A stretch of 32,000 nucleotides of DNA from Nitrosococcus oceani ATCC 19707 (GCF_000012805.1 NC_007484.1:450001-482000); one strand, 5' to 3'. Shown: positions 1-23,127, numbered from the stretch's first letter. Numbers and translations are program-made. Notes: generated by a model not told the origin, from the sequence alone.

Positions 1-14
1 CTAGTGGAGGTGGG

Positions 15-1019
15 ATGACTGGAGTCCGGATTGATGATGCCCTTGCCGATTGGGGAAATTTGGCTAAGGAGAATTGGCAGTCTCTGCTGCTTGGTAATGG
101 ATTCAGTATTAACGTATGGAGTGGTTTCAACTACGACAGCCTTCTTCAGGTTGCACGACAAGATGACCTTGAGCATCAGCTAAACGAAGAATCCGTGACT
201 CTATTTGATCATGTCGGAAGTTCAAATTTCGAGGACGTCTTGCGAATACTTTTCCACGCCAGGATGGTTGACGAGCAACTCGGGAGACCTCAAGGGGATG
301 AAATTGAAGCGATTTATCAGAACACGAAACGTGCTTTGGCAGATGCCGTCAATTACTCTCATGTCGCATACGGTCAGTTCAACGCTGCGGCGATAAACGA
401 ACAGTTGGGTGGCTACGATGATGTGTTCACGACCAACTACGACTTGATCCCATATTGGTCAATAATGCACGAAGGTGTGGATCGGTTTCGGGACTTTTTT
501 TGGGGTGCTGACGGGGTTTTTGAGTTATGCAACACTGAGGTATTCCCTAGGCGTACAAAGATTCATTACCTCCATGGGGCCATTCACTTAGTTGAACTTC
601 CGGATGGTCGCACGAAGAAGCTGGCGACAAATCAAAACGGCAATTTGCTCGAATTGTTTGATCTTAATGCGAGGGATCAATTCCCTCTCTTTATTTCTGA
701 GGGACATTGGCAACAGAAATTGTCTCGAATATGTAAAAATGACTATCTACGGTTCTGCTTTTCGAATCTGAGCGGTCTAGAAGGTAATGCTGTAATTATT
801 GGGCACTCCCTGCATCGCGACTACGATCAACATATCATCGATGCGATTTCTCAAAGCTCAGTGGACAGATTGGCTATTGGTGTTTGGCCGCACCAGCGCG
901 CTGAGGTCATCCTGGATTTCAAGGCTCGAATCATAGAGCAGTTGCATCAGAAGTCATTGGACTTTTTCGATTCTGAATCTCACCCCCTGGGATCTGAGGT
1001 TTTACGTGTCGAGAAATAA
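15..1019 (+). CDS. SIR2-like NADase-fold protein (DUF4917-type), single-gene cassette
   Basis: 334-aa ORF. Motifs LLLGNGFS (aa 24-31), FTTNYD (aa 138-143) and YLHG (aa 185-188) correspond to the glycine loop, catalytic Asn and catalytic His of SIR2-like enzymes. Size and motifs fit my recollection of Pfam DUF4917. The TAA stop lies inside the attC R'' box. Confidence 0.7.
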   Translation: MTGVRIDDALADWGNLAKENWQSLLLGNGFSINVWSGFNYDSLLQVARQDDLEHQLNEESVTLFDHVGSSNFEDVLRILFHARMVDEQLGRPQGDEIEAIYQNTKRALADAVNYSHVAYGQFNAAAINEQLGGYDDVFTTNYDLIPYWSIMHEGVDRFRDFFWGADGVFELCNTEVFPRRTKIHYLHGAIHLVELPDGRTKKLATNQNGNLLELFDLNARDQFPLFISEGHWQQKLSRICKNDYLRFCFSNLSGLEGNAVIIGHSLHRDYDQHIIDAISQSSVDRLAIGVWPHQRAEVILDFKARIIEQLHQKSLDFFDSESHPLGSEVLRVEK

Positions 1020-1061
1020 CAAATCGTTGCAGCGGACAAGCCGCTGAATGCGGCGTTAGAG
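1014..1061 (+). other. attC recombination site (short)
   Basis: R'' AATAAC (1015-1020), L''-like GTTGCAG, central stem CAGCGG/CCGCTG, R' GTTAGAG (1055-1061). The following TTAGAG complements the CTCTAA of the next attC. Confidence 0.6.
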
Positions 1062-1069
1062 AAGTGAAT

Positions 1070-1612
1070 ATGTCACAAGCAAAGAGCTCGTTTGAGCATG
1101 GAATAAAAGACGCAGAAGAGCTGCTTGCTCATTTCGATGCGATCAACTGCAATCCGCCTCCAGCAAATGCTGAGGTGCTAAAGCGAGCTGGTTTGGTCAT
1201 GGCTCTGACAGCGTGGGAAACATACGTTGAAGACCGTATCACAGAGGCCATGGATAAACGTCTCAATGTCGTCTCGGGTAGCTACGTTGGGGAGTTTATA
1301 CAGAAAAAACTCCAACAAGAGCTGAAGCAGTTCCATAACCCAACCTCAGACAAGACCAAAAAGATCTTTCAGGATTATCTTGGATTAGACGTTACTTCAG
1401 CATGGTTTTGGGCGAACGTAACCCCGGAAAAGGCTCGAAAATCCCTAAATCAGTGGATTTCAAAGCGCGGAGACGCCGTTCATCGTTCGAAGCCAATCAA
1501 TAATGGATCGTCGGCCGCCCATTTGATTAAGAAAGATGAGTTGGAGAAGGTAATCAGATTCCTACGGGAGTTGGTTCGTGCAACGGATGATTATCTTGAG
1601 CAAAATCTCTAA
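1070..1612 (+). CDS. HEPN-domain protein (predicted RNase), single-gene cassette
   Basis: ORF with ATG at 1070 (GTG at 1064 is an alternative start). C-terminal RGDAVH is an R-x4-H HEPN motif (R135/H140 in the 182-aa numbering). The TAA stop lies inside R'' CTCTAAC. Confidence 0.65.
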   Translation: MSQAKSSFEHGIKDAEELLAHFDAINCNPPPANAEVLKRAGLVMALTAWETYVEDRITEAMDKRLNVVSGSYVGEFIQKKLQQELKQFHNPTSDKTKKIFQDYLGLDVTSAWFWANVTPEKARKSLNQWISKRGDAVHRSKPINNGSSAAHLIKKDELEKVIRFLRELVRATDDYLEQNL

Positions 1613-1684
1613 CAATTCGCATCAGTACGCTGTCTTCGGACGCCAGACGTCCCTGACGGGCCGCCGCTGTGCTCCGCGTTATAT
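1607..1684 (+). other. attC recombination site
   Basis: R'' CTCTAAC (1607-1613), central stem GGACG/CGTCC, R' GTTATAT (1678-1684). Confidence 0.6.
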
Positions 1685-1695
1685 ATGATAGAACC

Positions 1696-2286
1696 ATGAA
1701 AGCTTTGTCTATCGAAGAAATTGAGTCGGCTCGTGCAAAGCTGTTGAGTAACGCAGAGAGTCTATTTGCGGAATCTCAGCTCTTATATAAACACGGTTTC
1801 TTTCCACGAGCCTACTGTTTGGCGCATTTGTGTTGCGAGGAATTAGCAAAAATACCAATGTTGGTTGGTGCGGGCTTGGATCTTGTTAACGGCGAAGAAG
1901 TTGACTGGGAAAAGCTGCATCACCGCTTGAAGAGGCACCAGGATAAGATCAACGCAATGCACGTTCATGATTATTTTCAAAGCGAAATTAGAGCTGATGA
2001 CTCTGATGTCAGGGAACATGAGGCTGCATTAAAAACCACGCCTCACCTCAACGACATGAAAAATAACAGCCTTTACGCTGGTTTGGTTGATAGTGTCTTT
2101 AGAGAACCTAGAGAGGTCGTTACTCAAGACGACGCAATAAAGCTTATGAACATCACCCATGAACGGTTGAAATATATCCAGGCTGTTGAACAGGTTTCTT
2201 TGGGGAAAATATCTACCTCGAAAACAGGAGCCAAGATGAGGCGATTTTTGAAAGAATATAACAAGTTACGGAAGGCAGACGCGTGA
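1696..2286 (+). CDS. AbiV-like (HEPN-type) abortive-infection family protein, single-gene cassette
   Basis: ATG at 1696 is preferred; the track start at 1669 is non-ATG and lies inside the attC. The N-terminal segment NAESLFAESQLLYKHGFFPRAYCLAHLCCEELAKIPML resembles AbiV-family proteins. Its ~196 aa is similar in size to lactococcal AbiV. Confidence 0.6.
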   Translation: MKALSIEEIESARAKLLSNAESLFAESQLLYKHGFFPRAYCLAHLCCEELAKIPMLVGAGLDLVNGEEVDWEKLHHRLKRHQDKINAMHVHDYFQSEIRADDSDVREHEAALKTTPHLNDMKNNSLYAGLVDSVFREPREVVTQDDAIKLMNITHERLKYIQAVEQVSLGKISTSKTGAKMRRFLKEYNKLRKADA

Positions 2287-2287
2287 G

Positions 2288-2393
2288 ACGCACCGCTACG
2301 CGTCGCGAACAACCGTTCGACTGGCAGAACCTCCTGCATAATCAGACGCCGTACGCCTATGTATGCAGGAGAACCCGCCCGTCAACTCCCCGA
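2288..2393 (+). repeat. attC subfamily copy A
   Basis: R'' CGCGAAC (2304-2310), spacer AACC, L'' GTTCGAC, 9-bp stem CTCCTGCAT/ATGCAGGAG, L' CGTCAAC, spacer TCCCCG, then A|TTATGTG. Alignable with 2929-3043 and 6962-7076. Confidence 0.55.
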
Positions 2394-2412
2394 TTATGTG
2401 CTAGGAGAAAAA

Positions 2413-2760
2413 ATGAGTTTCATTAATACAGAAGTTATCCGAGGCATTACTGGTGTATCTGAGGAAGATCAGGCATCGATAAAGTCATTTTTGCAAGGTG
2501 CTGTCTACTGTTGGTGTAAAAATCGTAAGGATGAGTGGTTCTCTCTTCGAGATCTAATGGGCGGTGAAAATTTCTATTGGCAAGGAACTCCATTAATTTC
2601 TTTGTACGAAAAACACGAAGCTAAAGGTAGTGAGGATCCTGTAAAAGATGCAGGCAAAGATGCTGGGTGGTTACTTAAAGCTGTAATTGGTTCAGATCTA
2701 AGGCAGTTTGATACTAAAAAAGAAGACCTTATTCGTAAGTATCGTTGGGCTGGTGAGTAA
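2413..2760 (+). CDS. hypothetical protein (cassette-borne, 115 aa)
   Basis: ATG at 2413 is preceded by AGGAG; the upstream part of track ORF 2359 lies in the attC repeat. No recognisable motif. The cassette ends are supported by TTATGTG / CACATAA complementarity. Confidence 0.55.
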   Translation: MSFINTEVIRGITGVSEEDQASIKSFLQGAVYCWCKNRKDEWFSLRDLMGGENFYWQGTPLISLYEKHEAKGSEDPVKDAGKDAGWLLKAVIGSDLRQFDTKKEDLIRKYRWAGE

Positions 2761-2762
2761 CG

Positions 2763-2851
2763 CACATAACAAAGCATTTAAGAGTGATTCTCAACGCTTA
2801 GCACCTTTCATTCCATCGTTGAGTTTCGTGTTTAAGGCGCAATGGTTAAGG
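2763..2851 (+). other. attC recombination site
   Basis: R'' CACATAAC (2763-2770), central stem CTCAACG/CGTTGAG with near-symmetric arms, R' GTTAAGG (2845-2851). Confidence 0.5.
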
Positions 2852-2923
2852 TGTGGTGGCGGCGTTGCTCACACCTTAATGCGGCGTTCGCGCCGCTGCG
2901 CGGCGCGGATCGGGGAGTTGATT
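2846..2923 (+). other. ORF-less mini-cassette consisting essentially of an attC
   Basis: It starts with TTAAGGTGTG (2846-2855), whose exact reverse complement CACACCTTAA is at 2870-2879 (R''-like but ending AAT, not AAC). Then spacer GCGGC, L'' GTTCGCG, 7-bp stem GCGCCGC/GCGGCGC, spacer CGGGGA and R' GTTGATT (2917-2923). Confidence 0.4.
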
Positions 2924-2928
2924 ACGCT

Positions 2929-3043
2929 AAACGGCTGCCCGCGCTGCTACGCGTCGCGAACAACCGTTCGATTGGCGGAACCACCTGCATTATCAGATGC
3001 CGCACATCTATTACCCAGGAGAACCCGCCCGTCAACTCCCCGA
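2929..3043 (+). repeat. attC subfamily copy B (forms a second ORF-less unit with 2917-2928)
   Basis: Alignable with copies A and C. R'' CGCGAAC (2955-2961), L'' GTTCGAT, hairpin AGATG-N5-CATCT, L' CGTCAAC, spacer TCCCCG, then A|TTAGGTTC (3043/3044). Confidence 0.55.
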
Positions 3044-3051
3044 TTAGGTTC

Positions 3052-3477
3052 ATGAACAGAGAGGAGCGGATAGCCAGATTGAAAGAGCTACGCGTAGAAA
3101 GGCGGGAGGGTCCGCTCTTTCAATCAGCTAATGACTGTATGCAATGGATTGACAATGTTGCACCATTACTAAGGTACGACCGCAATCATTACGACAACTT
3201 TATGGGTCACGCGAAATATGTAAGGGTTACGAATCTTTCTGCTGATCTTCTCATGGCCCACCTAAATCCTATGATCGGCATCGTGAACCAAGCGATCGGG
3301 GAACTAGAGAATGATTTCGAGCCAGAACATGACGTTGAAACGAAAGTGGTGGTAACTAGTAACGATCATCAGTGGTACCAAAAACCAACGGGATTGATCG
3401 CTATAGGAGTGATTATTGTCGTGCTTGGAGCATGCGCAATCTGGATACTTAACCACTATTTCGATATTGGCCTATGA
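3052..3477 (+). CDS. hypothetical protein with C-terminal transmembrane helix (141 aa, cassette-borne)
   Basis: ATG at 3052 lies directly after the cassette junction; the upstream part of track ORF 2842 crosses attC repeats. The C-terminal LIAIGVIIVVLGACAIWIL is hydrophobic helix-like. Cassette ends are supported by TTAGGTTC / GAACCTAA. Confidence 0.55.
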   Translation: MNREERIARLKELRVERREGPLFQSANDCMQWIDNVAPLLRYDRNHYDNFMGHAKYVRVTNLSADLLMAHLNPMIGIVNQAIGELENDFEPEHDVETKVVVTSNDHQWYQKPTGLIAIGVIIVVLGACAIWILNHYFDIGL

Positions 3478-3574
3478 ACCTAACAATGCGCTGCAGCCGA
3501 CCCTTGGCCGCTCCCTCCCTTCCCTACCGCTTCGGTCAGTCGCCCTCAAGTGCGGCTGAGCTTAGACGTTAGAA
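3478..3574 (+). other. attC recombination site
   Basis: R'' ACCTAAC (3478-3484) followed by AATGCGCTGCAGCCGAC. The right arm GCGGCTGAGC...AGAC is complementary. R' GTTAGAA (3568-3574). Confidence 0.65.
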
Positions 3575-3623
3575 GCAGAACAAGCCTTGCGATCTTCGCC
3601 AAAAAGGTATAATTTCTATACCA

Positions 3624-3887
3624 ATGTACACCTTCGAATTTGATGAGCGAAAGAGCAACGGCAATCGGCGCAAACACGGCATCGATTTCGTCGAAGCCCA
3701 AGCGCTTTGGAGCGATCCCTATCTCATGGAAATCCCAGCGTTAACGTCCGATGAAGAGCGTTTTCTGGTAATCGGCAAAATCGAAGGGAAGCACTGGTCG
3801 GCGGTCATTACGCCCCGAAATGGCAACATCCGAATAATCTCGGTGCGCCGCTCACGGGTTGAAGAGGTAGCAATTTATGAAGGCTAA
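3624..3887 (+). CDS. brnT: BrnT-family toxin (DUF497)
   Basis: 87 aa. FEFDERKSNGNRRKHGIDFVEA...IRIISVRRSR is typical of BrnT. It overlaps the downstream antitoxin gene by 11 nt. Confidence 0.8.
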   Translation: MYTFEFDERKSNGNRRKHGIDFVEAQALWSDPYLMEIPALTSDEERFLVIGKIEGKHWSAVITPRNGNIRIISVRRSRVEEVAIYEG

Positions 3888-4110
3888 GAGCTTTGATGCG
3901 AAATTCGAGAAAGGCGAAGATGTCACCAAATCCTTGGATCTGTCCAAAGCGCGGAGGCCCCTTCAAGAACAGCGCAGGGTAAATGTCGATTTTCCGGCTT
4001 GGATGGTCGAATCCCTGGATCGGGAGGCAGGGCGTTTGGGTGTTACGCGGCAATCGGTAATTAAAGTTTGGTTGGCTGAGCGCCTTGAGCAAATAGCTTC
4101 TAACAAGTAG
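3877..4110 (+). CDS. brnA: BrnA-family antitoxin (RHH)
   Basis: 77 aa. RVNVDFPAWMVESLDREAGRLGVTRQSVIKVWLAERL is a BrnA-type ribbon-helix-helix C-terminus. Paired with brnT. Confidence 0.75.
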   Translation: MKAKSFDAKFEKGEDVTKSLDLSKARRPLQEQRRVNVDFPAWMVESLDREAGRLGVTRQSVIKVWLAERLEQIASNK

Positions 4111-4143
4111 TTCCAGCGGACCCCAAAGTCGCTTCAATTACTG
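4098..4143 (+). other. degenerate attC of the BrnTA cassette
   Basis: R'' TTCTAAC (4098-4104) matches the cassette start TTAGAAGC. L'' GTTCCAG follows, but the right half is poor and the only R'-like box is ATTACTG (4137-4143), with A instead of G. Confidence 0.3.
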
Positions 4144-4434
4144 GATGAAGAACTTTATTCACCATGACCAGGGTAAGAAATCCGACAAGTAAAAGCTTAT
4201 TGCATGGCTTGAGTCAGATCATGGATATGTACAAGTTGCTGAAGATTATCAAATCTTCTTGCAAATGGTTCAATTACTGAAAGAGCAAGGTTACGATACA
4301 CAACCAGCACCAACAGAAGCTGAGTTTGTTACTGCCTGCAAAAGAGGCTTGGCGAGAGAATTCAGGGCATAGATGCTGAACTATTTAACTGTTAGGTATC
4401 GCGCGGTTTGCTGCCGTAGATTGAATTTGTAAAC

Positions 4435-4638
4435 ATGGCAAGAAAAATTAGAGAGCTTGTCCAAGATCTAAAAGAAGTTGGGTTTTACGAAATTTCAGGT
4501 GGCGGTAAAGGATCGCATCGCAAATTTACGCATACCAAGTATGCCGGTGCCGTGACGCTCAGCGGAAAGTCTGGTGACGACGCGAAACCTTATCAAGAAA
4601 AGCAGGTGAAACAAGCCATAGAAACGGTGAAGAAATGA
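4435..4638 (+). CDS. hicA: HicA-family toxin
   Basis: 67 aa with a GSHRKFTH motif. 4-nt overlap with the downstream hicB. Confidence 0.75.
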   Translation: MARKIRELVQDLKEVGFYEISGGGKGSHRKFTHTKYAGAVTLSGKSGDDAKPYQEKQVKQAIETVKK

Positions 4639-4856
4639 AAAAGATCGATCAGTATCATAAATGGGTTGAGTGGAGCGAAGAAGATCAAACTTATATTGGA
4701 AAATGCCCTGACTTGATTACAGGAATTCACGGAGATGATCCAGTAAGACTATACGGTGAATTATGTGAGGTTGTTGAAGATGTTATTCGTCATTTCGAAG
4801 AAGAGGGGTATGCACTTCCTAGTCCTCGCATTCGACCGATGCAGGAAGTAGGGTAA
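4635..4856 (+). CDS. hicB: HicB-family antitoxin
   Basis: 73 aa. WSEEDQTYIGKCPDLITGIHGDDP...EEEGYALPSP matches the HicB N-terminal domain pattern. Coupled to hicA. Confidence 0.7.
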   Translation: MKKIDQYHKWVEWSEEDQTYIGKCPDLITGIHGDDPVRLYGELCEVVEDVIRHFEEEGYALPSPRIRPMQEVG

Positions 4857-4905
4857 ATCTTTAAATAAACGGCAAGTGAGTAAAAGGTTGTTCCGGAGGA
4901 CAAAT

Positions 4906-4956
4906 GCCTAACCCGGCGCTCAACTCGGACGCCTCCTTCGTCGGCGCCGGTTAGCT
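4906..4956 (+). other. attC recombination site
   Basis: R'' GCCTAAC (4906-4912), CCGGCGC pairing with GGCGCCGG, R' GTTAGCT (4950-4956). The cassette start TTAGGTAT at 4392 complements R'' at 7 of 9 positions. Confidence 0.65.
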
Positions 4957-4993
4957 TGGTCGTTATGCAATCAACCAGAAAGGAGTACATCCC

Positions 4994-5455
4994 ATGAAAA
5001 AAGCAATATTGGCTATAGTTGCAAGCATTTTTATCTCTGGCATTGTTCAAGCAGAGGAATATCTGCATGGCCAGTCTGGAACTTCTTATCGAAATATCGG
5101 GGGTACAACCTATGGCTCAGATGGAACGAGCTATAGAGGCATCGGCAACACCATCTACGGCTCTGATGGCAGTTCATCCAGGAGAATTGGCAATAGCACA
5201 TATAACTCCGATGGTTCGTCCTCAAGGCAAATCGGGAACACTCTGTATAATTCAGACGGTAGCACTGTACGCCGCAGTGCGCAGCTACGTCGAGTTTTAC
5301 AACCGCTACCGCCTTCACTCGCCTTTGGGGTATCGTTCACCCATGGAGTTCGAAGTCGATCAATCCACCACAATGGTGTCCACTTTTGCGTAGGAACTTT
5401 CCAGCAAAAAGCAGAGCGACGAGGAACGGGGAACGGCGCTTTTTGCTGCCGGTGA
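4994..5455 (+). pseudogene. signal-peptide repeat protein, 3' end replaced by an IS remnant
   Basis: N-terminal signal peptide MKKAILAIVASIFISGIVQA, then about five ~17-aa repeats (G.T.YGSDG.S.R.IGN). The repeat pattern breaks at ~5266, where another frame starts to encode a transposase C-terminus. Confidence 0.55.
5267..5455 (+). mobile_element. IS3-family transposase 3' remnant
   Basis: The frame ending at 5393 reads VRSYVEFYNRYRLHSPLGYRSPMEFE, the conserved end of IS3-family OrfB (rve) transposases. No upstream transposase sequence is present. An 11-bp inverted repeat AGCAAAAAGC...GCTTTTTGCT follows. Confidence 0.6.
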
Positions 5456-5464
5456 TGCGTGGCG

Positions 5465-5866
5465 TTATGTTTTTGGTTGAAACTGCTCCAGATTTAAATA
5501 GTCCGCGAAAGGGGCAAAGTCTTTGTCAGAAAATAGCAGCTGAAATCTGTTCTCAATGCAAAATGTAGCAATTATAAGGTCGGCAGTTTTCCTGATGGTA
5601 ATTCCCTTTTTTCTCAGAAATCGATAATTATCGGCACACTTGTCAACCATATGGTGACCAAATAACTCGTACTGGTCGAGTGTGGTCAGAGTGCGCTTTG
5701 CTTTTTTATATTCGCTATCTTCGCGAAACCCCTGGAGTATCTCCAAAAGAATTAGATCCCCCATGGCAATGGTCCCTTCATCCAGCGCAAAATCAAGGAG
5801 ATCAGTTTTTTCGTTTACTGCACCGTTGAAGTAATCTATCCAAACACCGGTATCGGCAAGAATCAC
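5465..5866 (-). CDS. vapC: VapC-family PIN-domain toxin
   Basis: 133 aa. The N-terminal ILADTGVWIDYF and the rest fit a PIN-domain pattern. 4-nt overlap with the upstream antitoxin. Confidence 0.8.
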   Translation of the reverse strand: MILADTGVWIDYFNGAVNEKTDLLDFALDEGTIAMGDLILLEILQGFREDSEYKKAKRTLTTLDQYELFGHHMVDKCADNYRFLRKKGITIRKTADLIIATFCIENRFQLLFSDKDFAPFADYLNLEQFQPKT

Positions 5867-6057
5867 TTGCCGCCTCTCAGCTCTTCTAAATCACCTTCCC
5901 AATGCAATTTACCCCGCAGCTTACGGATAGCCTGTTGCTTATTCCGCTTAACCAGTAGTTTGAGACCTTCTTCCACGGCTTCCTTTTTGGTTCTTAAACC
6001 GGTAGCTTTTAAAGCCTCTGCCATCAATTTATCGTCAATTACAATATTTGTTCTCAT
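5863..6057 (-). CDS. vapB: VapB-family antitoxin
   Basis: Start at MRTNIVIDDKLMAEALKATGL (internal ATG of track ORF 5863..6141), typical of short VapB antitoxins. Coupled to vapC. Confidence 0.7.
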   Translation of the reverse strand: MRTNIVIDDKLMAEALKATGLRTKKEAVEEGLKLLVKRNKQQAIRKLRGKLHWEGDLEELRGGK

Positions 6058-6172
6058 GGGAGTATGTGTATAATTAGTTAATAAATACACATTATACAGT
6101 GAAGCAAAAATAAATCCACAACATACCGCAGCCGGGCTCATTCATCCACGGGTAAACCCGTGGTGTTCTGTC

Positions 6173-6445
6173 TTGCGACCGCATATTAGATCAGCCAGAA
6201 ACAAATTCGCTCATTTCTGCTGGTCACGGAGTAATGACGATGAAATCTTCGGCACAAACTTCTCCGGAGGCATCCCTGAAGGGAATAAGCATAGAAGGGG
6301 CTTTGTTTCCTACACTGTAGCTGAGCTTGCTGAGTTCCATCATAAAGCATACGAAATTTTTGATGTATTATCAGAGTTAATCCAATGCTTCTGGTCGTTA
6401 GACCTTGTATCTAGAGGGCGTAACCTACAAGGTTGCATACCGTAA
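6173..6445 (+). pseudogene. 5'-truncated HEPN-like gene fragment
   Basis: The open frame has no ATG (the track start is TTG). It contains RNKFAH (an RN-x3-H HEPN-type motif) near its beginning, so the N-terminal half of a domain is missing. Confidence 0.4.
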
Positions 6446-6466
6446 CCTCAGCGGTTACAATTCTTA

Positions 6467-6638
6467 ATGATTAGGAGTTTTGCTCACAAAGGCATGGAAC
6501 GGTTTTACCAAGCTAGTGGCAAGTCGGGCACTCAGGCGAAACATGCTACGCGACTGCGGCTAATCCTCTCTAACCTGGATGACGTTTCGCTTTGTGGGCC
6601 GTGATGCAGAAACTGTGAATTACGAAGATTACCACTGA
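6467..6638 (+). pseudogene. higB: higB toxin gene with internal deletion and frameshift
   Basis: MIRSFAHKGMERFYQASGKSGTQAKHATRLRLILSNLDD aligns with the N-terminus of the intact HigB at 25644-25922. FRFVGRDAETVNYEDYH* in another frame aligns with its C-terminus. The middle ~35 aa are missing. Confidence 0.7.
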
Positions 6639-6650
6639 CGAGGTTGGCTC

Positions 6651-6919
6651 ATGAATATGCATAATCCCGCTCATCCAGGCGAGTGGGGCTATCGGTCACT
6701 GAGGCTGCCCGTCATTTGGGCATAAGCCGAAAGACCCTTTCCAAGGTACTCAACGGTCGTGGTGTAATTACGCCGGAGATGGCGTTGCGGCTTGAAATGG
6801 CATTCGGCAAGCCGAATGCAGCACACTGGCTCAGGCTGCAAAACGCCTATGATCTCTGGCAAACCCGTCAGCATTGCGCCGATATGCACGTTACGCCTGT
6901 GAAAACCCATGTTGCTTAA
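6651..6919 (+). pseudogene. higA: higA antitoxin gene with 5' internal deletion and frameshift
   Basis: ATG at 6651 gives [11 protein letters not shown] (compare MAMHNPPHPGE at 25644), then runs out of frame. The HTH body [23 protein letters not shown]...PEMALRLE continues in the frame of track ORF 6683..6919, which has a GTG start. Confidence 0.6.
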
Positions 6920-6961
6920 TGCTTATGTTTGGCCTAACTCGGCGCTCCAGCCAACGGCGCC

Positions 6962-7076
6962 AAACGGCTGCCCGCGCCGCTCCGCGTCGCAAACAATCGT
7001 TCGACTGGCAGAACCTCCTGCATCATCAGATGCCGTACATCTATTACCCAGGATAACCTGCCGGTCAACTCCCCGA
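6962..7076 (+). repeat. attC subfamily copy C (preceded by an attC left half GCCTAAC at 6932-6938)
   Basis: Alignable with copies A and B from AAACGGCTGCCC. R'' CGCAAAC (6988-6994), L'' GTTCGAC (6999-7005), hairpin AGATG-N5-CATCT, L' GGTCAAC, spacer TCCCCG, then A|TTGTGCCC (7076/7077). Confidence 0.55.
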
Positions 7077-7147
7077 TTGTGCCCTTCACTAAGAGTTTTT
7101 CAATAGTAACGTTTGGCGTTATTGTCTCGTTGCGTTATTATTGAGTC

Positions 7148-7426
7148 ATGATCCTATCGTTCAAGTGTAAGGATACCGAAAAGCTGGCGAACGGTCGTCG
7201 TATCAGGCGCTTTGTCAACTTTGAGCGTGTTGCGTTGAGGAAGATCAGGCAACTCCAGGCTGCCAGTCAGCTTGATGATCTTAAAGTACCGCCCGGCAAT
7301 ATGTTGGAAGCGTTGTCTGGTGACCGCCAGGGTCAGCACAGCATTCGAATCAACAGGCGGTTCCGGGTTTGCTTTCGTTGGGCGAAGGCCGGTGCGGAAG
7401 ATGTCGAAATTATTGATTACCATTAG
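7148..7426 (+). CDS. higB: HigB-type (RelE/ParE superfamily) toxin
   Basis: 92 aa. MILSFKCKDTEKL...VPPGNMLEALSGDRQGQHSIRINRRFRVCFRW...VEIIDYH is the classic HigB/plasmid-killer pattern. Confidence 0.8.
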   Translation: MILSFKCKDTEKLANGRRIRRFVNFERVALRKIRQLQAASQLDDLKVPPGNMLEALSGDRQGQHSIRINRRFRVCFRWAKAGAEDVEIIDYH

Positions 7427-7439
7427 TAGGAGGTAGCTC

Positions 7440-7754
7440 ATGCGGAACATTGATGCTGTAACGCCAGGCGAGTTGCTGAAAGAAGAATTTCTGGAGCCTA
7501 TGGGGATTTCTCAATACCGCTTGGCTAAAGAAATCGGAGTGCCGGCTCAGAGGATCAGTCAGATTATTGCCGGAAAGCGTTCGATAACTGCAGACACGGA
7601 TCTCCGGCTCTGCCGTTTTTTTGGTCTTTCCAACGGTTATTGGTTGCGGGCTCAAGCAGCCTACGACACAGAGATTGCAAAGGATGCTCTTGAAGACCAG
7701 TTGAAGAATATCCGTCCTTGGGACTCTGTACCAGAAATCGGGCCTAGGGCATAA
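7440..7754 (+). CDS. higA: HigA-family antitoxin (XRE HTH)
   Basis: 104 aa. TPGELLKEEFLEPMGISQYRLAKEIGVPAQRISQIIAGKRSITADTDLRL is typical of HigA. The TAA stop lies inside R'' GGGCATAAC. Confidence 0.8.
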   Translation: MRNIDAVTPGELLKEEFLEPMGISQYRLAKEIGVPAQRISQIIAGKRSITADTDLRLCRFFGLSNGYWLRAQAAYDTEIAKDALEDQLKNIRPWDSVPEIGPRA

Positions 7755-7767
7755 CCAACGGTTGCAC
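7747..7767 (+). other. attC left half only (R''-spacer-L'')
   Basis: GGGCATAAC-CAACG-GTTGCAC. R'' complements the cassette start TTGTGCCC (7 of 8). No right half follows; a truncated toxin reading frame follows instead. Confidence 0.45.
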
Positions 7768-7958
7768 AGCGACCGGTTTTCTGCCGCTTCCTGGACGAAA
7801 TTGTCCACCCAAATACACAACATCAACGAATCTTCGTCGTAGCAGTTGAAGACTACGTCTATCTTGTCCCATACGTCGAGAATGAGGATGAACTATTTCT
7901 AAAAACAATCATTCCTAGTCGAAAATTTACAAAGATTTATCTCGGAGACGATACATGA
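7755..7958 (+). pseudogene. 5'-truncated toxin gene (partner of the downstream RHH antitoxin)
   Basis: A 67-codon open frame without a start codon, ending ...VAVEDYVYLVPYVENEDELFLKTIIPSRKFTKIYLGDDT*. Its stop overlaps the antitoxin ATG (ATGA). The ...IIPSRK.TK tail resembles the ends of BrnT-like toxins. Confidence 0.45.
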
Positions 7959-8272
7959 GTAATGCTAAATTAAGCAAAGAAGAACAGCAGCTTCTCAGAG
8001 CTGTCGAAGCCGGCGAATTTGAATCAGTCCTTACCAAAAAACGAAGGGCTGAACTAGTCAGTGCGGCAAAGAACACGGTACGCAAAGACAAACGGATAAA
8101 TATTAGAATTTCCAATAGAGATTTGAAGGCCGTTCAACTGAAAGCATCAGAAGAAGGTATTCCCTATCAAACCCTGGTATCAAGCATTATTCATAAGTAC
8201 ATATCAGGTTCGCTCAAAGACATATCCGCTAACAAGCGCATGCAGTCGGACGCGGCAAAGCCGCGCCGCTGA
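7955..8272 (+). CDS. CopG/RHH-type antitoxin (BrnA-like), now orphan
   Basis: 105 aa. SKEEQQLLRAVEAGEFESV...KDKRINIRISNRDLKAVQLKASEEGIPYQTLVSSIIHKYISG fits the CopG/BrnA antitoxin pattern. The 3' end runs into the attC. Confidence 0.65.
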   Translation: MSNAKLSKEEQQLLRAVEAGEFESVLTKKRRAELVSAAKNTVRKDKRINIRISNRDLKAVQLKASEEGIPYQTLVSSIIHKYISGSLKDISANKRMQSDAAKPRR

Positions 8273-8287
8273 TTTTTGGCGTTGAGT
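8227..8287 (+). other. attC recombination site
   Basis: R'' CGCTAAC (8227-8233), central stem GCGCGGC-AAA-GCCGCGC, R' GTTGAGT (8281-8287). Confidence 0.65.
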
Positions 8288-8317
8288 GGCAGATCGAACT
8301 CCCGTGCCTGCCGGTAG

Positions 8318-8796
8318 TTATGCGGATTCGCTCGTAAGTTGGCGCTTGATTTCGGCTTGCAATTCGTCGATCGAGAGCAAGCAGGATACAAAATAGCGGA
8401 GATTCTCGCGAGCATCGCGGATTCGCTCGTTTTGAATTTCATCGAAATCGATTTCCAACAGCGCGCAAAGCTCCCTCCCGGTGAGAGCCTGATCCTCTAT
8501 TATTTTCTTCTTGAGGCCATATACGATATGCCCACGATCCTCTTGGTTGAAGCAACAAAGGTGAACGTTTAACGTATACGGGATATGGCTCGCCAGCGCA
8601 TTTTTGCGGATTAGATACGTTCCATCGTGATCGAGGTATCCGAACGAGAAGCAATCATGTCTTCGAGTTCATGCCCGATTCGTATCGCGGTCGCCTGTAC
8701 CCGGCTCACAAGTTGAGCAAGTTCATCATTACCGACCACATACCAGTAGTTTGACTTGCCATCTGTGCGCCCGCGCGAAGAAGACATCAAGACCAT
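8318..8796 (-). pseudogene. frameshifted gene downstream of the methyltransferase (possible cognate endonuclease; function unknown)
   Basis: ATG at 8796 overlaps the MTase 3' end by 10 nt. The frame reads ...RIGHELEDMIAS and stops at 8611. A second frame, open from ~8668 to 8318, reads FGYLDHDGTYLIRKNALASHIPYTLNVHLCCFNQEDRGHIVYGLKKKIIED...IDELQAEIKRQLTSESA*. An apparent frameshift near 8640-8668 would join them into ~158 aa. Confidence 0.5.
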
Positions 8797-9503
8797 TCGA
8801 ATTCCCCTAATGCTATGTCACAGCCGAGGAACTTGCGGCCTGTTTGTTGCGCCGCCGCGAGCACCGAAAAAGAACCTGCCGCAGGATCGATCACGACATC
8901 GCCAGAGTTCGTTACGGCATCAATCAGCTTTGCTTGCAGTCCTATGGGCTTAGGATGTGCAAACGACATATCACGCTGAAACTTCTCTTGATAAACATCA
9001 GGTATGCTGTGGTTCGTCCAAACGCCTTTCGCGCGGACAGGTTTCTTTTGGGCGACAAGTAAATACTCAGCTTTGCGACGTGAACGGTACCCCATACCAA
9101 TCCGCTCCTTGTCCCAAGTAATCAGATCAACAGTTTTCATCGGCGTTCCGTCGAACCAGCTCGAAGTCCCCTCGCACAGATGAAACTTGTCAATCCAGAG
9201 GAACAAGTGCCCCGAAGGACAGAGCACTCGAGCAATTTCTGAAACAAAATCAAATATTGTCTCTTCCGGCATTTGTTTCATCTGCGCTCGCAACTGCTGG
9301 CGAGATCCTTCGTTCCCGTACTTGAGCTTATCCATCACGCCCCGATACTGGGGGTCAAAGAATGCGGCTGGCACCGAATTATCAACGAGGCGTCCAAGAA
9401 ATTTCAGGCCATCCATTTTGATTTTTCGGTCAAAAGGAATGCTTTTTTTCTCGGAGACGGATGGAAGGTCTCCAATGCCTCGCGCATGACTGTAAACGCT
9501 CAT
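8787..9503 (-). CDS. beta-class N6-adenine/N4-cytosine DNA methyltransferase
   Basis: Motif IV FFDPQY lies near the N-terminus and motif [12 protein letters not shown] near the C-terminus, the N6_N4_Mtase order. ATG at 9503 has GAGGT 5 nt upstream and is preferred over 9557. Confidence 0.8.
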
Positions 9504-9863
9504 TTCGACCTCATTTCGGGAGAAAATAGCAAGAAATATGAGACCATAGAATGCCATACATGCGGCGTCAATGCGTTTCTGCCATACTATTGTCTGTCCG
9601 GTTTTGCCGCTGATCTAGGTTTTGCCCAACCCAAGGTTGCAATGAATGTGCTTCGCCTGCCGGTGAAGCAGCGGCAAATTGAAGCGAAGGACATTCAAAA
9701 TATTGACTTAATTACCCAAAAAATCCCTGTAAAGCTTTTTAAATTCGATATCTCCAAAGCATTAGGTATAGCCGTCACTCGTATTGCTGATTCAATATTT
9801 TGCAATTGATGCCTACAACAAGGTAATCGTAGCGTTGGCTACAAAGCTTGGAAAGATAACAAA

Positions 9864-11609
9864 ATGAAAGTTAGTATGCGTATACCTAGCAAACTCCTGC
9901 TATCATTGATGGCGGTGACTCTACTCATCACGCTGGCCTTTAGCTCCACCAAGGCAGCGCCTGATACAGGGAGTAGCACCCTTTATTATGGCGGCTCGAT
10001 ACTTACCATGGAGGGGAGTGCTCCGAGCTATGCGGAGGCCCTGGTTGTTAAGGATGGCCGCATCCTTTTTGTTGGTACCAAAACGCAGGCCGAACATCTA
10101 GCAGGTGCGGCGGCAAAAAAGGTCGATCTCGACGGCAGGGCGCTGCTGCCGGGATTCATCGACGCTCATGGCCATGTGTTCAACGCTGGTTTTCAGAAAC
10201 TCGCAGCCAATTTGCTACCGCCTCCAGATGGCGGCGGCAAGGACGTAGCATCCCTCGTGGCGCTGCTCAAGGAATGGCAAGATAAAAACGCTGCTGCTAT
10301 TAAGAAATCGGGCTGGATCATTGGCTTCGGCTATGATGATTCACGACTAGCGGAAGGGCGTCATCCCACAGCAAAGGAACTGGATCAGGTATCCACCGAG
10401 TTGCCGGTGGTGATCATCCATCAATCCGGCCACTTGGCCGCGATGAACCATAAGGGACTGGAGCTGGCTGGAATCACGGCTGAAACCAATGACCCGGTTG
10501 GTGGTGTGATTCGCCGCCAGGCCGACGGCAAGACGCCAAACGGAGTGCTTGAGGAGATGGCCTCCTTCGGGCCGATTTTCAAAATCCTGGGAGCTCTCGA
10601 TTCGGAAGCTAACGAGAAAATTGCCCTGGCTGGGGTAGATGCCTACACCCAACACGGTTTCACTACGGCACAGGAAGGTCGGGCCAACAAGGCAGCGACC
10701 GAGACTTGGCGAAAACTTGCCGATGAGCGCAAACTTAAAATCGATGTCGCAGTCTATCTCGACCTCCAATCAGAAATCGAGTACATCAAGCAAGTCGGAA
10801 TCCACGAAGACTACACTCATCATTTTCGTGTGGCGGGTGTAAAGTTGAGCCTAGATGGCTCGCCGCAAGGCAAAACGGCCTGGCTCAGCAAACCCTATCT
10901 TAATCCGCCTCCCCAAAAACCGGATAGTTATACAGGATACCCGGCCATTCCGAGCGACAAGGAGAGACAGGCACTGTTTAACCTTGCCTACCAGAAGAAC
11001 TGGCAACTGCTGGTGCATTGTAACGGCGATGCAGCGGCTGAAGCGATGATTGATGCTGTAGCCGTGGCTAGCGAGAAATATGGCAAGGATGACCGTCGTA
11101 CCGTGATGATCCATGCACAGACTGTCCGCGAAAGCCAACTCGAGCGGATGAAAAAACTTGGCATCCTGCCATCGTTTTTCTCCATGCATACTTATTATTG
11201 GGGTGACTGGCATCGGGATGAGACCCTCGGCCCGGAACGAGCAGCACGTATCTCACCAACCGCCTCGGCCCTGAAGCGCGGCATGCGATTCACCGAGCAT
11301 CATGATGCGCCTGTCGCGCTGCCGAGCGCGATCATGATTCTCCACACCACCGTCAACCGGACCAGCCGCAGTGGTGAGGTAATCGGGCCGGACCAGCGCG
11401 TTAGTCCCTATCAGGCGCTGAAGTCAATCACCGACTGGGCGGCCTGGCAATATTTCGAGCAGGATAGTAAGGGCACGCTTACGAAGGGCAAGCTGGCCGA
11501 TCTCGTGATATTGGACCAAGACCCGACACAGGTTGACCCGGCAACGATCATGAACATACGTGTATTGGAAACGATCAAGGAGGGTCAGACCGTCTATAAG
11601 GCGCAGTAA
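9864..11609 (+). CDS. exported metal-dependent amidohydrolase (YtcJ-like, Amidohydro_3)
   Basis: 581 aa. It has a signal peptide, a GFIDAHGHV metal-binding motif and a family-typical length. Confidence 0.75.
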   Translation: MKVSMRIPSKLLLSLMAVTLLITLAFSSTKAAPDTGSSTLYYGGSILTMEGSAPSYAEALVVKDGRILFVGTKTQAEHLAGAAAKKVDLDGRALLPGFIDAHGHVFNAGFQKLAANLLPPPDGGGKDVASLVALLKEWQDKNAAAIKKSGWIIGFGYDDSRLAEGRHPTAKELDQVSTELPVVIIHQSGHLAAMNHKGLELAGITAETNDPVGGVIRRQADGKTPNGVLEEMASFGPIFKILGALDSEANEKIALAGVDAYTQHGFTTAQEGRANKAATETWRKLADERKLKIDVAVYLDLQSEIEYIKQVGIHEDYTHHFRVAGVKLSLDGSPQGKTAWLSKPYLNPPPQKPDSYTGYPAIPSDKERQALFNLAYQKNWQLLVHCNGDAAAEAMIDAVAVASEKYGKDDRRTVMIHAQTVRESQLERMKKLGILPSFFSMHTYYWGDWHRDETLGPERAARISPTASALKRGMRFTEHHDAPVALPSAIMILHTTVNRTSRSGEVIGPDQRVSPYQALKSITDWAAWQYFEQDSKGTLTKGKLADLVILDQDPTQVDPATIMNIRVLETIKEGQTVYKAQ

Positions 11610-22806: not shown

Positions 22807-22855
22807 ACCGATCACCTGCCGCGACCGAAGGGAGCAGTCCACGTGCATGGACCTA

Positions 22856-23125
22856 TTAGGTTTTATCCTTGTATACATCGCCACGCGGTCCAATATGGTC
22901 TACATAGACGACATTCTTGAGTTCATCAATCCAAAAAATGATCCGAACATTGCCTACTCGTATTCTACGATAACCTGCCCAATCACCGACCATACTCTTA
23001 ATACCTGATAATCCAAGCGGACCGTTCTTCATCTGGGCCAGTACATGTTTTATTTTGACTTGCTGATCTTGAGGCAGTTTTCTCAAATAACGAGCAGCCC
23101 GGCGATGTACCACAATTGCATACAT
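22856..23125 (-). CDS. relE: RelE/ParE-family toxin
   Basis: 89 aa. ...GDWAGYRRIRVGNVRIIFWIDELKNVVYVDHIGPRGDVY is typical of RelE/StbE. Confidence 0.75.
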   Translation of the reverse strand: MYAIVVHRRAARYLRKLPQDQQVKIKHVLAQMKNGPLGLSGIKSMVGDWAGYRRIRVGNVRIIFWIDELKNVVYVDHIGPRGDVYKDKT

Positions 23126-23127
23126 GA

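What the first reader, a model, noticed from the sequence alone, without database searches (positions are those of the whole stretch)
15..2286. Three consecutive single-gene cassettes with defence-type domains: SIR2-like (DUF4917-type), HEPN and AbiV-like
Each ORF is bounded by its own attC, so each should be a self-contained mobile unit.
- ORF 15-1019 shows the SIR2-like triad context: GNGFS aa 27-31, TTNYD with N141, LHG with H187. No second domain is recognisable. I believe it corresponds to the uncharacterised family DUF4917.
- ORF 1070-1612 has a C-terminal R-x4-H HEPN motif (RGDAVH).
- ORF 1696-2286 resembles AbiV-family abortive-infection proteins.

SIR2 NADases and HEPN RNases are established effectors of abortive-infection defence. 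A stand-alone ~330-aa SIR2-like protein carried as an integron cassette would be an unusually minimal and, to my knowledge, untested anti-phage module. The clustering of three such cassettes suggests a defence section of the array.
Basis: partly seen in the sequence, partly recalled or inferred. Interest (0 to 1): 0.85.

Follow-up and report, generated by a model that had tools for sequence, protein, structure and literature searches.

The report
Three defence-type integron cassettes, Nitrosococcus

Summary
ORFs 15-1019, 1070-1612 and 1696-2286 exist, and the quoted motifs are present and invariant in homologues.

- **Family assignments.** Profile searches give DUF4917 (E 5e-46; PADLOC candidate PDC-S21, E 2e-99), HEPN_RiboL-PSP (4e-30) and AbiV (3e-37; TIGR04498).
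- **ORF1 fold.** A confident AlphaFold model (pLDDT 90) matches defence SIR2 NADases best: SIR2-HerA at E 3e-10, then ThsA and DSR2.
- **Host.** The window is Nitrosococcus oceani.
- **Cassette status.** Relatives of each gene occur alone, flanked by attC sites, in integrons of other bacteria. Two sit next to an integron integrase. Each gene is therefore an independent cassette.
- **The attC sites here.** ORF1 has a 48-nt minimal attC. ORF2 has a normal 78-nt site. The AbiV attC has lost its R' end to a repeated structured element.

The novelty claim is overstated. The single-domain ~330-aa form is the norm for a family of about 3,000 clusters. PADLOC already lists the family as a defence candidate. 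AbiV and HEPN cassettes in integrons are published. Anti-phage activity of DUF4917 appears untested, and one member (Campylobacter SliP) is reported as a secreted deacetylase.

Verdict: new member of a known kind, with modest interest.

The parts
15..1019 (+). Cassette 1 gene. Stand-alone SIR2-like protein, 334 aa, family DUF4917 / PADLOC PDC-S21. Putative catalytic N141 and H187; NAD-binding loop G27-N-G-F-S31.
   Evidence: ORF. Pfam PF16263 at E 4.6e-46. PADLOC PDC-S21 at E 2.4e-99. Motif residues invariant in 34 homologues. AlphaFold pLDDT 90. Foldseek top hits are SIR2 of SIR2-HerA, then ThsA and DSR2. The cassette's 5' boundary (...CCCCGA|TTATGTCTCTCGG) lies 13 nt before window position 1 (L001).
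1014..1061 (+). attC of cassette 1: a 48-nt minimal attC. R'' AAATAAC at 1014-1020 overlaps the stop codon. L'' is TTGCAGCGGAC, followed by a 3-5-nt loop and L' CCGCTGAA. R' GTTAGAG is at 1055-1061.
   Evidence: Sequence. A near-identical site separates two unrelated cassettes in a Pseudoalteromonas xiamenensis integron. A sister site precedes the ORF2 homologue in Pseudomonas neustonica. Both fold as canonical attC hairpins (z -5.2 and -3.0). The closest ORF1 homologue carries a ~97-nt attC with the same ends (L104).
1070..1612 (+). Cassette 2 gene. Single-domain HEPN protein of the RiboL-PSP family, 180 aa, with Rx4H motif R133-G-D-A-V-H138.
   Evidence: Pfam PF18735 at E 4.1e-30. R133 and H138 invariant in 21 homologues. 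1,588 homologues, mostly 180 aa and 70-97% identical. The homologue in P. neustonica is a cassette between GNAT and ApeA cassettes. No PADLOC hit. The structure model is only moderate (pLDDT 69.5); its best, non-significant fold hits are HepT HEPN toxins.
1607..1684 (+). attC of cassette 2, 78 nt. R'' CTCTAAC at 1607-1613 overlaps the stop codon. R' GTTATAT is at 1678-1684.
   Evidence: Sequence. The P. neustonica homologue has an attC starting at the same TCTAAC stop-codon context and ending GGGCGTTATGC. Folding alone is not significant (z -0.27).
1696..2286 (+). Cassette 3 gene. AbiV-family abortive-infection protein, 196 aa (= Noc_0408).
   Evidence: Pfam PF18728 at E 2.9e-37. TIGR04498 at 5e-38, above its cut-off. 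PADLOC AbiV at 4.7e-7. Homologues of 61-88% identity in Halomonas and Halopseudomonas lie next to AbiTii or MmeI-type R-M genes. Conserved residues include R77, H81, N119, K122 and N123.
2256..2395 (+). Composite 3' boundary of cassette 3. The R''-L''-loop-L' half of the AbiV attC (2256 to about 2300, overlapping the ORF end) is fused to a partial copy of the array's repeated structured element (about 2300-2395), which ends ...GTCAACTCCCCGA|TT.
   Evidence: The Halomonas homologue has the intact ~60-nt attC at the same place, ending GCGTTAGAT. Alignment of 7 copies of the repeat shows an exact common 3' end (family D1). The bottom strand of 2258-2398 folds with z -3.8, and 0 of 200 shuffles fold as well.

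Best explanation
Positions 1-2395 of the window hold three independent, promoterless, single-gene cassettes of the chromosomal integron array of Nitrosococcus oceani. Each encodes a self-contained abortive-infection-type effector.

1. **DUF4917 protein.** This is a single-domain SIR2-fold enzyme of the defence (NADase) branch. It is most likely kept inactive until infection and then hydrolyses NAD+, which stops growth of the infected cell. The GNGFS loop would bind NAD+, and N141 and H187 would be catalytic.
2. **RiboL-PSP HEPN protein.** This would be a metal-independent RNase acting through R133 and H138. It would cut cellular or phage RNA and arrest translation.
3. **AbiV protein.** This would work like lactococcal AbiV, a HEPN-type protein that blocks translation after sensing an early phage product.

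The cassettes lie far from any integrase-proximal promoter. They are therefore probably expressed weakly or not at all, and would serve as a reserve that integrase-mediated reshuffling can bring into expression.

**Shown:** the gene families, the fold, residue conservation, cassette status, and independent mobility.
**Inferred:** NADase and RNase activity, triggering by phage, and the expression state.
For: **Identity and fold.**
- In the PDB profile search the only significant hit is the SIR2 of SIR2-HerA. It aligns FTTNYDL and LHG motif to motif.
- ORF1 has only 3 cysteines and no CxxC zinc module, like defence SIR2 proteins and unlike canonical sirtuins (own knowledge).

**Cassette status and independence.**
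- ORF1 homologues (54-60% identical) are flanked by attC sites in Neptuniibacter, where the gene is the first cassette beside an integron integrase (TIGR02249, 319 bits). The same holds in Modicisalibacter, Microbulbifer, Marinomonas (second cassette beside a full IntI, 393 bits), a Cellvibrionaceae MAG, Vibrio europaeus and metagenome contig L104.
- The ORF2 homologue is a cassette in P. neustonica.
- The AbiV homologue carries its own attC in Halomonas and Halopseudomonas.
- No ORF2 or ORF3 relative lies near the 160 other DUF4917 loci.
- Cassette GC is 0.46-0.48 against 0.55 for the adjacent chromosome.

**Defence association.**
- PADLOC PDC-S21 derives from genes embedded in BREX, DISARM or type I R-M loci.
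- Among 105 neighbours of 19 diverse DUF4917 loci, PADLOC finds Hma, pAgo with SIR2-APAZ, dGTPase, Uzume, SspH, DUF499/DUF1156 methylase, PD-T4-10 and others.
- The V. europaeus array carries the gene near an Hhe cassette.
- 34 plasmids carry the gene, but none of 50,697 phage genomes does, and no BFVD fold matches.
- AbiV is among the most frequent known defence systems in chromosomal integrons (10.1101/2024.07.02.601686).
- HEPN cassettes in integrons were noted in 2013 (PMC3710099).

**Expression.** No sigma-70-like promoter was found on the coding strand across the three cassettes.
Against: - No experiment links DUF4917 or this HEPN subfamily to phage resistance. Full-text searches found no paper on PDC-S21 and none on DUF4917 in defence.
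- The one characterised DUF4917 protein, C. jejuni SliP, is reported as a secreted lysine deacetylase.
- About 36%-identical homologues in the Pseudomonas fluorescens group sit at one conserved chromosomal position among metabolic genes (Fe-ADH, MFS transporter, aldolase, DHDPS). That pattern is not typical of defence genes.
- ORF1 has no recognisable sensor domain, so how an NADase would be held in check is unexplained.
- ORF2 has no PADLOC match, and its structural match to HEPN toxins is not significant.
- No integron integrase lies within the 10 kb upstream that could be read, so the local element could be an integrase-less attC cluster.
- The AbiV attC lacks a canonical R'.
Confidence: 0.6

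Rival explanations
1. ORF1 is not an immune NADase. It is a sirtuin-type protein-modifying enzyme (a deacylase or ADP-ribosyltransferase), like the Campylobacter DUF4917 protein SliP, with a regulatory, stress or inter-organism role. Its presence in an integron array would only reflect that it is accessory cargo.
For: SliP is a DUF4917 protein reported to deacetylate lysines and to be secreted (PMC10421069). Foldseek also hits the ADP-ribosylating sirtuin SirTM at E 4e-4 and human Sirt1/2 at about 2e-3 to 5e-3. P. fluorescens-group homologues sit in a conserved, non-defence neighbourhood.
Against: - The best fold and sequence matches are all defence NADases, at E values 5-6 orders of magnitude better than for deacetylases.
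- There is no zinc module.
- Defence genes are over-represented next to diverse homologues.
- PADLOC derived the family from embedding in R-M, BREX or DISARM loci.
- SliP itself lies in an operon with a type I restriction R subunit.
- N. oceani is a free-living nitrifier with no host to target.
Confidence: 0.15
2. The three genes are dormant or selfish cargo. The cassettes are silent in this position, and any retained activity (a HEPN or SIR2 toxin) mainly stabilises the array or is simply carried along, as toxin-antitoxin cassettes are. They would give N. oceani no phage protection.
For: No promoter-like site on the coding strand. No integrase, and hence no Pc promoter, within 10 kb upstream. 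The array is rich in toxin-antitoxin cassettes: BrnT/A, HicA/B, VapB/C, HigB/A. The AbiV attC is damaged. An IS605-type TnpB and large non-cassette genes interrupt the array upstream.
Against: All three ORFs are intact, with every conserved residue in place. They are identical in three N. oceani assemblies. None has a partner antitoxin gene, which a stabilising toxin would need. Silent storage is compatible with the defence explanation: it is the published 'biobank' model.
Confidence: 0.2
3. ORF1 and ORF2 (with or without ORF3) form one multi-gene system, with the SIR2 protein and HEPN protein working together. On this view the 48-nt sequence between them is only a hairpin and not a recombination site.
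For: The gap between ORF1 and ORF2 is only 50 nt. The N. oceani copy of the short site does not fold significantly better than shuffles (z -1.4). The three genes stay together in all N. oceani assemblies seen.
Against: No ORF2 or ORF3 homologue occurs near any of about 160 other DUF4917 loci. ORF2 homologues have other neighbours. The same 48-nt site separates unrelated cassettes in two other integrons and there folds as a canonical attC. The N. oceani assemblies are essentially identical in sequence, so their shared gene order carries no information.
Confidence: 0.03

Closest known systems
PADLOC phage-defence candidate PDC-S21 (Pfam DUF4917, PF16263)
   Same: ORF1 matches the PDC-S21 model over its whole length (E 2.4e-99, residues 8-330 of 334). 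It matches PF16263 at 158 bits against a cut-off of 28. It has the same single-domain, ~330-aa architecture.
   Different: Nothing structural differs. PDC-S21 was defined from genes embedded in BREX, DISARM or type I R-M loci, whereas this copy is an integron cassette. The family's anti-phage function is a prediction only.
SIR2 subunit of SIR2-HerA (Nezha), ThsA of type I Thoeris, and DSR2
   Same: Same SIR2/Rossmann fold (Foldseek probability 1.0, TM about 0.5, E down to 3e-10). Same TTNYD and LHG catalytic motifs. No zinc module.
   Different: ORF1 has no HerA partner, no SLOG or Macro sensor domain, no TIR partner and no large C-terminal sensor. Sequence identity is only 11-17%. How it would be activated is unknown.
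Campylobacter jejuni SliP (Cjj81176_0779)
   Same: It is annotated in the same Pfam family, DUF4917, and is a stand-alone SIR2-like protein (PMC10421069).
   Different: SliP is reported as a secreted lysine deacetylase acting on host histones. N. oceani is free-living.
Lactococcus lactis AbiV and the AbiV cassettes reported in sedentary chromosomal integrons
   Same: ORF3 passes the Pfam, NCBIfam and PADLOC AbiV models and has the same ~200-aa size. AbiV is reported among the most frequent known defence systems in chromosomal integrons.
   Different: The match to the PADLOC AbiV model is weak (E 4.7e-7), which indicates a distant subfamily. The attC of this copy has lost its R' end.
RiboL-PSP HEPN family (Anantharaman et al. 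2013) and other HEPN cassettes of integrons
   Same: Rx4-6H motif and an all-helical domain. HEPN proteins in integron cassettes were described in 2013 and proposed to induce dormancy (PMC3710099).
   Different: ORF2 is the bare HEPN domain without the endoRNase L-PSP fusion that names the family. It is not the 'integron cassette HEPN' family of PDB 3jrt, since a profile search of PDB sequences found no match. It has no MNT-type antitoxin partner.

Membership tests
DUF4917 / PADLOC PDC-S21 | Full-length match to the family profile above the curated threshold | tested here: met
   PF16263 at 158.1 bits (cut-off 28), residues 24-322. PDC-S21 at E 2.4e-99, residues 8-330.
DUF4917 / PADLOC PDC-S21 | Single-domain protein of about 330 aa with conserved GNGFS, TTNYD and LHG motifs | tested here: met
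   The motifs are invariant in 34 homologues. Nearly all of the best 150 of 2,947 cluster representatives are 320-360 aa and are matched end to end.
DUF4917 / PADLOC PDC-S21 | Protects against phage | not testable with these tools
   No paper in the held library reports a test.
SIR2 superfamily, defence NADase branch | SIR2/Rossmann fold with catalytic Asn and His | tested here: met
   Model pLDDT 90. Foldseek hits SIR2-HerA at 3e-10, ThsA at 3e-4 and DSR2 at 9e-4. N141 and H187 align to the TTNYD and LHG motifs of PDB 8w9l.
SIR2 superfamily, defence NADase branch | NAD+ glycohydrolase activity triggered by infection | not testable with these tools
   This needs an enzyme assay and infection experiments.
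Canonical sirtuin deacetylases | Zinc-binding module with four cysteines | tested here: not met
   ORF1 has only three cysteines (C172, C240, C248) and no CxxC pairs.
Thoeris ThsA | C-terminal SLOG or Macro sensor domain and a neighbouring TIR protein (ThsB) | tested here: not met
   The only domain is DUF4917. The neighbours are a HEPN protein and AbiV.
SIR2-HerA (Nezha) | Adjacent HerA ATPase gene | tested here: not met
   There is no HerA-like gene in the cassette or among neighbours. Homologues are single-gene cassettes.
DSR1 / DSR2 | Protein of about 1,000 aa with a large C-terminal sensor region | tested here: not met
   ORF1 is 334 aa.
HEPN, RiboL-PSP family (PF18735) | Profile match above threshold and a conserved Rx4-6H motif | tested here: met
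   105.6 bits (cut-off 28.4), residues 14-178. R133 and H138 are invariant.
HEPN, RiboL-PSP family (PF18735) | HEPN four-helix fold confirmed by structure comparison | tested here: inconclusive
   The model is all-helical but has pLDDT 69.5. The best hits are HepT HEPN toxins at E 0.5-1.
AbiV abortive infection family | Profile match above curated thresholds | tested here: met
   PF18728 at 128.6 bits (cut-off 27.1). TIGR04498 at 130.6 bits (cut-off 27). PADLOC AbiV at E 4.7e-7.
AbiV abortive infection family | Abortive infection triggered by an early phage protein (SaV-type) | not testable with these tools
   This needs phage experiments.
Integron gene cassette | One ORF followed by an attC site with R''-L''...L'-R' boxes and GTT at the crossover | tested here: met
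   This applies to cassettes 1 and 2 (1014-1061 and 1607-1684). No attC covariance model (IntegronFinder) was available, so the sites were assigned by hand and by comparison.
Integron gene cassette | Canonical attC at the 3' end of cassette 3 (AbiV) | tested here: inconclusive
   R'', L'' and L' are present and homologous to the Halomonas attC. The R' is replaced by a repeat that ends GA|TT instead of G|TT.
Integron gene cassette | The same gene found as a cassette in other integrons, with different neighbours | tested here: met
   This holds for all three genes. Integron integrases were confirmed with TIGR02249 in four of those loci.
Integron gene cassette | Integron integrase and attI at the head of this array | not testable with these tools
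   No integrase lies in the 10 kb upstream that could be fetched. Sequence further upstream was out of reach.

The most novel reading that the evidence does not exclude
The stand-alone DUF4917 protein is a complete sensor-plus-effector immune NADase. At about 330 aa it would be the smallest SIR2 defence system, with no partner and no separate sensor domain. Integrons would be a major route by which it spreads among marine Gammaproteobacteria. A family of about 3,000 sequence clusters, currently only a 'candidate', would then become a validated single-gene defence with a new way of holding a SIR2 enzyme in check.
Probability: 0.45. Interest if true: 0.55.

Novelty: new member of a known kind. 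Interest (0 to 1): 0.35.

Why it matters
The cassettes would add a nitrifier's chromosomal integron to the growing evidence that integron arrays store compact, single-gene anti-phage functions.

The most useful point is practical. DUF4917 (PDC-S21) is a large, widespread, single-domain SIR2 family that recurs as an integron cassette, twice directly beside the integrase. It still seems to lack any phage-defence test, and its only characterised member has been given a quite different role (a secreted deacetylase).

A simple cloning and phage-challenge experiment, together with an NADase-versus-deacetylase assay, would settle which reading is right. It would also show how a sensor-less SIR2 enzyme is controlled.

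Tried and rejected
- **Heuristic attC finders.** Two home-made finders were too strict. They missed sites that are clear by eye, so I did not use their counts. attC calls rest on manual box assignment and comparison with other integrons.
- **Rfam.** A scan of 1-10,000 found nothing relevant: one sub-threshold sroE hit.
- **Folding energies.** The N. oceani attC1 and attC2 are not distinguishable from shuffles.
- **Multi-gene system.** I considered ORF1-ORF2-ORF3 as one system and rejected it for lack of co-occurrence.
- **Strain comparison.** I checked whether N. oceani strains differ in cassette order, which would have mapped the boundaries. They are identical.
- **ORF2 structure.** The model was only moderately confident and its fold matches were non-significant. 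A PDB sequence-profile search found nothing.
- **Phage-encoded relatives of ORF1.** None by tblastn in 50,697 phage genomes and none by fold in BFVD.
- **Literature.** Searches for PDC-S21, for DUF4917 in defence, for a Nitrosococcus integron and for RiboL-PSP gave nothing decisive.
- **Integron integrase.** I could not reach sequence more than 10 kb upstream of the window to look for it.
Full report
**Source and layout.** ORF1's exact protein sequence is found in Nitrosococcus oceani assemblies (ATCC 19707, GCA_000155655.1, GCA_000740745.1), and ORF3 is Noc_0408. The assemblies are identical over this region, so they say nothing about cassette boundaries. Positions 1 to about 9,600 of the window are the distal part of a cassette array. 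It consists of small, mostly same-strand ORFs at GC 0.46-0.49. It includes the toxin-antitoxin pairs BrnT/A, HicA/B, VapB/C and HigB/A and ends near an orphan type II methylase. Ordinary chromosomal genes at GC about 0.55 follow. The 10 kb upstream that I could fetch (L001) continues the array and holds an IS605-type TnpB and some large genes, but no integrase.

**Observation check.** The three ORFs and all quoted motifs are present at the stated places. The one slip is that R135/H140 is numbered from the alternative GTG start at 1064. From ATG 1070 the residues are R133 and H138.

**ORF1.**
- Pfam gives DUF4917 (E 4.6e-46) over residues 24-322, with SIR2_2 only as a sub-threshold echo. PADLOC gives PDC-S21 at E 2.4e-99 over the whole protein.
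- In 34 homologues of 50-61% identity, G27-N-G-F-S31, T140-N141-Y-D143 and H187-G188 are invariant.
- An AlphaFold model built on that alignment is confident (pLDDT 90, pTM 0.89). It is a single Rossmann-type domain with a helical insertion at about residues 43-131.
- Foldseek against the PDB returns defence SIR2 proteins first: the SIR2 subunit of E. coli SIR2-HerA/Nezha at E 3e-10, then ThsA, the ADP-ribosylating SirTM, and DSR2. Human sirtuins score much more weakly.
- A profile search of PDB sequences gives one significant hit, the SIR2 of SIR2-HerA, with FTTNYDL and LHG aligned motif to motif.
- ORF1 has three cysteines and no zinc module.
- The SIR2 assignment, and its placement with the NAD-consuming defence branch, are therefore well supported by sequence and fold. 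Enzymology is not shown.

**The architecture is not unusual.** An exhaustive profile search finds 2,947 clusters at 50% identity (979 at E below 1e-30). Nearly all of the best 150 are 320-360 aa and are matched end to end. The partner-less, single-domain form is the family norm.

**Cassette status of ORF1.**
- The closest relatives are single-gene integron cassettes.
- In Neptuniibacter the gene is the first cassette next to an integron integrase. In Marinomonas it is the second cassette next to a full-length one (TIGR02249, 319 and 393 bits).
- In Modicisalibacter, Microbulbifer, a Cellvibrionaceae MAG and metagenome contig L104 it lies between attC sites. In Vibrio europaeus it sits in a typical Vibrio array, identified by its run of small same-strand ORFs and DUF3265 ORFs (own knowledge: these are usually called inside VCR-type attC repeats). 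That array also carries an Hhe anti-phage cassette.
- By eye, about half of the homologues at 50% identity or more whose downstream sequence could be read show an attC. The rest, and more distant relatives, lie on plasmids (34 records) or in chromosomes.

**The attC of ORF1 (1014-1061).**
- It is only 48 nt but keeps all the boxes: R'' AAATAAC overlapping the stop codon, L'' TTGCAGCGGAC, a short loop, L' CCGCTGAA, and R' GTTAGAG.
- An almost identical site separates two unrelated cassettes in a Pseudoalteromonas xiamenensis integron. A sister site precedes the ORF2 homologue in Pseudomonas neustonica. Both fold as textbook attC hairpins, at z -5.2 and -3.0.
- The closest ORF1 homologue (L104), and the attC just upstream in N. 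oceani, have ~97-nt sites with the same ends. The short site therefore looks like a deletion of the variable terminal structure.

**ORF2.**
- HEPN_RiboL-PSP at E 4e-30. R133 and H138 are invariant.
- The subfamily is abundant and strikingly conserved: 1,588 hits, and the top 120 are 69-97% identical and mostly exactly 180 aa.
- In P. neustonica the homologue is one cassette in an array headed by an integrase remnant. It lies between a GNAT cassette and an ApeA (HEPN) cassette, with an attC that starts at the same stop-codon context. In P. aeruginosa it lies outside an integron, near HipA.
- PADLOC has no model for it.
- Its structure model is mediocre. The best fold hits are HepT HEPN toxins, but they are not significant.
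- Anantharaman et al. list this family as carrying the Rx4-6H motif and as related to AbiD/AbiF. In 2013 they had already proposed that HEPN cassettes of integrons act as dormancy-inducing RNases.

**ORF3.**
- AbiV by three independent libraries.
- Close homologues (61-88% identical) in Halomonas and Halopseudomonas lie beside AbiTii or an MmeI-type R-M gene.
- In Halomonas a ~60-nt attC begins inside the last codons of the gene and ends GCGTTAGAT.
- In N. oceani the same R''-L''-loop-L' part is present (from 2256). Exactly where GTT should come, the sequence continues into a partial copy of a repeat.
- That repeat occurs seven times in the 42 kb I could read. It always ends at ...GTCAACTCCCCGA|TT, 8-40 nt before the next ORF, and it is strongly structured (z -3.8).
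- It may be this array's own attC type with an unusual GATT box, an ORF-less cassette, or a small mobile element. I could not decide between these.
- The AbiV cassette is thus bounded, but not by a clean canonical attC.

**Independence of the three genes.** No relative of ORF2 or ORF3 lies within the fetched flanks of about 160 other DUF4917 loci. Each gene has different neighbours elsewhere. A three-gene or two-gene system is therefore very unlikely.

**Defence association of DUF4917.**
- PADLOC's PDC set was built from uncharacterised genes embedded in BREX, DISARM and type I R-M loci.
- Among 105 genes flanking 19 diverse homologues, PADLOC recognises Hma, a pAgo with its SIR2-APAZ partner, dGTPase, Uzume, SspH, DUF499/DUF1156 methylase, PD-T4-10 and type II methylases. 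From the family list I estimate about 13-15 distinct proteins, well above the few per cent expected (own knowledge). The tool does not report hits per locus, so this is approximate.
- In the other direction, the ~36%-identical homologues of the P. fluorescens group occupy one syntenic site among metabolic genes. The only characterised member, SliP, is described as a secreted deacetylase, although its gene sits in an operon with a type I restriction subunit.
- No phage genome or viral fold library contains a relative.

**What is known already.** Integron cassettes as stores of streamlined, often single-gene anti-phage systems is published work. AbiV is named there among the most frequent known systems in chromosomal integrons. 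I found no report testing DUF4917/PDC-S21 against phage.

**Mechanism and verdict.**
- The most likely picture is three independent abortive-infection effectors stored as promoterless cassettes: NAD+ depletion by ORF1, and RNA cleavage or translation arrest by ORF2 and ORF3. No coding-strand promoter was found.
- Family, fold, conservation and cassette mobility are shown. Activities, triggers and expression are inferred.
- The 'defence section' idea is weak. Three adjacent cassettes out of roughly 16-20 gives a post hoc probability near 0.02.
- The finding is accurate but ordinary in kind: a new member of known classes. One open point is worth testing, namely whether the sensor-less DUF4917 SIR2 protein is an immune NADase.

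Noticed in passing
window 1014-1061; also L086 4001-4047, L087 about 3945-3994, L104 downstream of 3990, L001 9725-9826: A 48-nt 'minimal' attC that keeps the R and L boxes but has almost no variable terminal structure. It recurs nearly unchanged in integrons of Nitrosococcus, Pseudoalteromonas and (as a sister sequence) Pseudomonas neustonica. It appears derived by internal deletion from a ~97-nt attC with the same ends. It is shorter than the 57-141 bp range usually quoted for attC sites (own knowledge).
   Followed up: partly
window 2286-2394 (partial), 2880-3045, 6945-7078; L001 about 600-700, 1800-1880, 8282-8450, 9826-9985: A ~105-170-nt strongly structured repeat. It has 7 copies in 42 kb, and the bottom strand folds at z -3.8. 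Every copy ends exactly at ...GTCAACTCCCCGA|TT, 8-40 nt upstream of the next cassette ORF. Its outer arms (AATCGGGGAGTTRAC / GTCAACTCCCCGATT) pair like attC R and L boxes, but with AAT/ATT in place of AAC/GTT. It could be the array's own non-canonical attC type, an ORF-less cassette or a MITE. It has no Rfam match.
   Followed up: partly
window 2256-2330 compared with L097 2130-2195: The AbiV attC starts inside the coding sequence, so the last ~10 codons are part of R'' and L''. This is conserved between Nitrosococcus and Halomonas. In Nitrosococcus the sequence switches to the repeat exactly at the expected G|TT crossover point, which suggests an aberrant recombination event there.
   Followed up: partly
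L009, L015-L085 (Pseudomonas loci): DUF4917 homologues of about 36% identity occupy one conserved chromosomal position across many P. fluorescens-group species. They lie between an Fe-alcohol dehydrogenase and variable metabolic, regulatory or TonB-receptor genes. This looks vertically inherited rather than island-borne, which is unexpected for a defence candidate.
   Followed up: partly
window 22,850-32,000: A second region rich in toxin and defence genes. It holds two diverged copies of a ParE/RelB pair (repeats D4-D6) and a HigB/HigA pair. It also holds a type I R-M locus (hsdM 26041-27696, hsdS 30607-31911, both minus strand) interrupted by a PIN toxin gene, an IS605-family TnpB (28400-29554, minus strand) and a ParE gene. 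The start of hsdM is duplicated at 29868-29965 (repeat D3).
   Followed up: partly
L001 4138-7928 (upstream of the window): The cassette array is interrupted by an IS605-type TnpB followed by two large genes that do not look like cassettes: an M48 peptidase with TPR repeats, and a metallophosphatase. Cassettes resume after them.
   Followed up: no
L087 3410-4543, L089 3227-4341: In Pseudomonas neustonica the ORF2-type HEPN cassette directly follows a GNAT acetyltransferase cassette whose attC is also a ~48-nt minimal site. An ApeA (HEPN) cassette comes next. This is a second example of adjacent HEPN-type cassettes in an integron.
   Followed up: no
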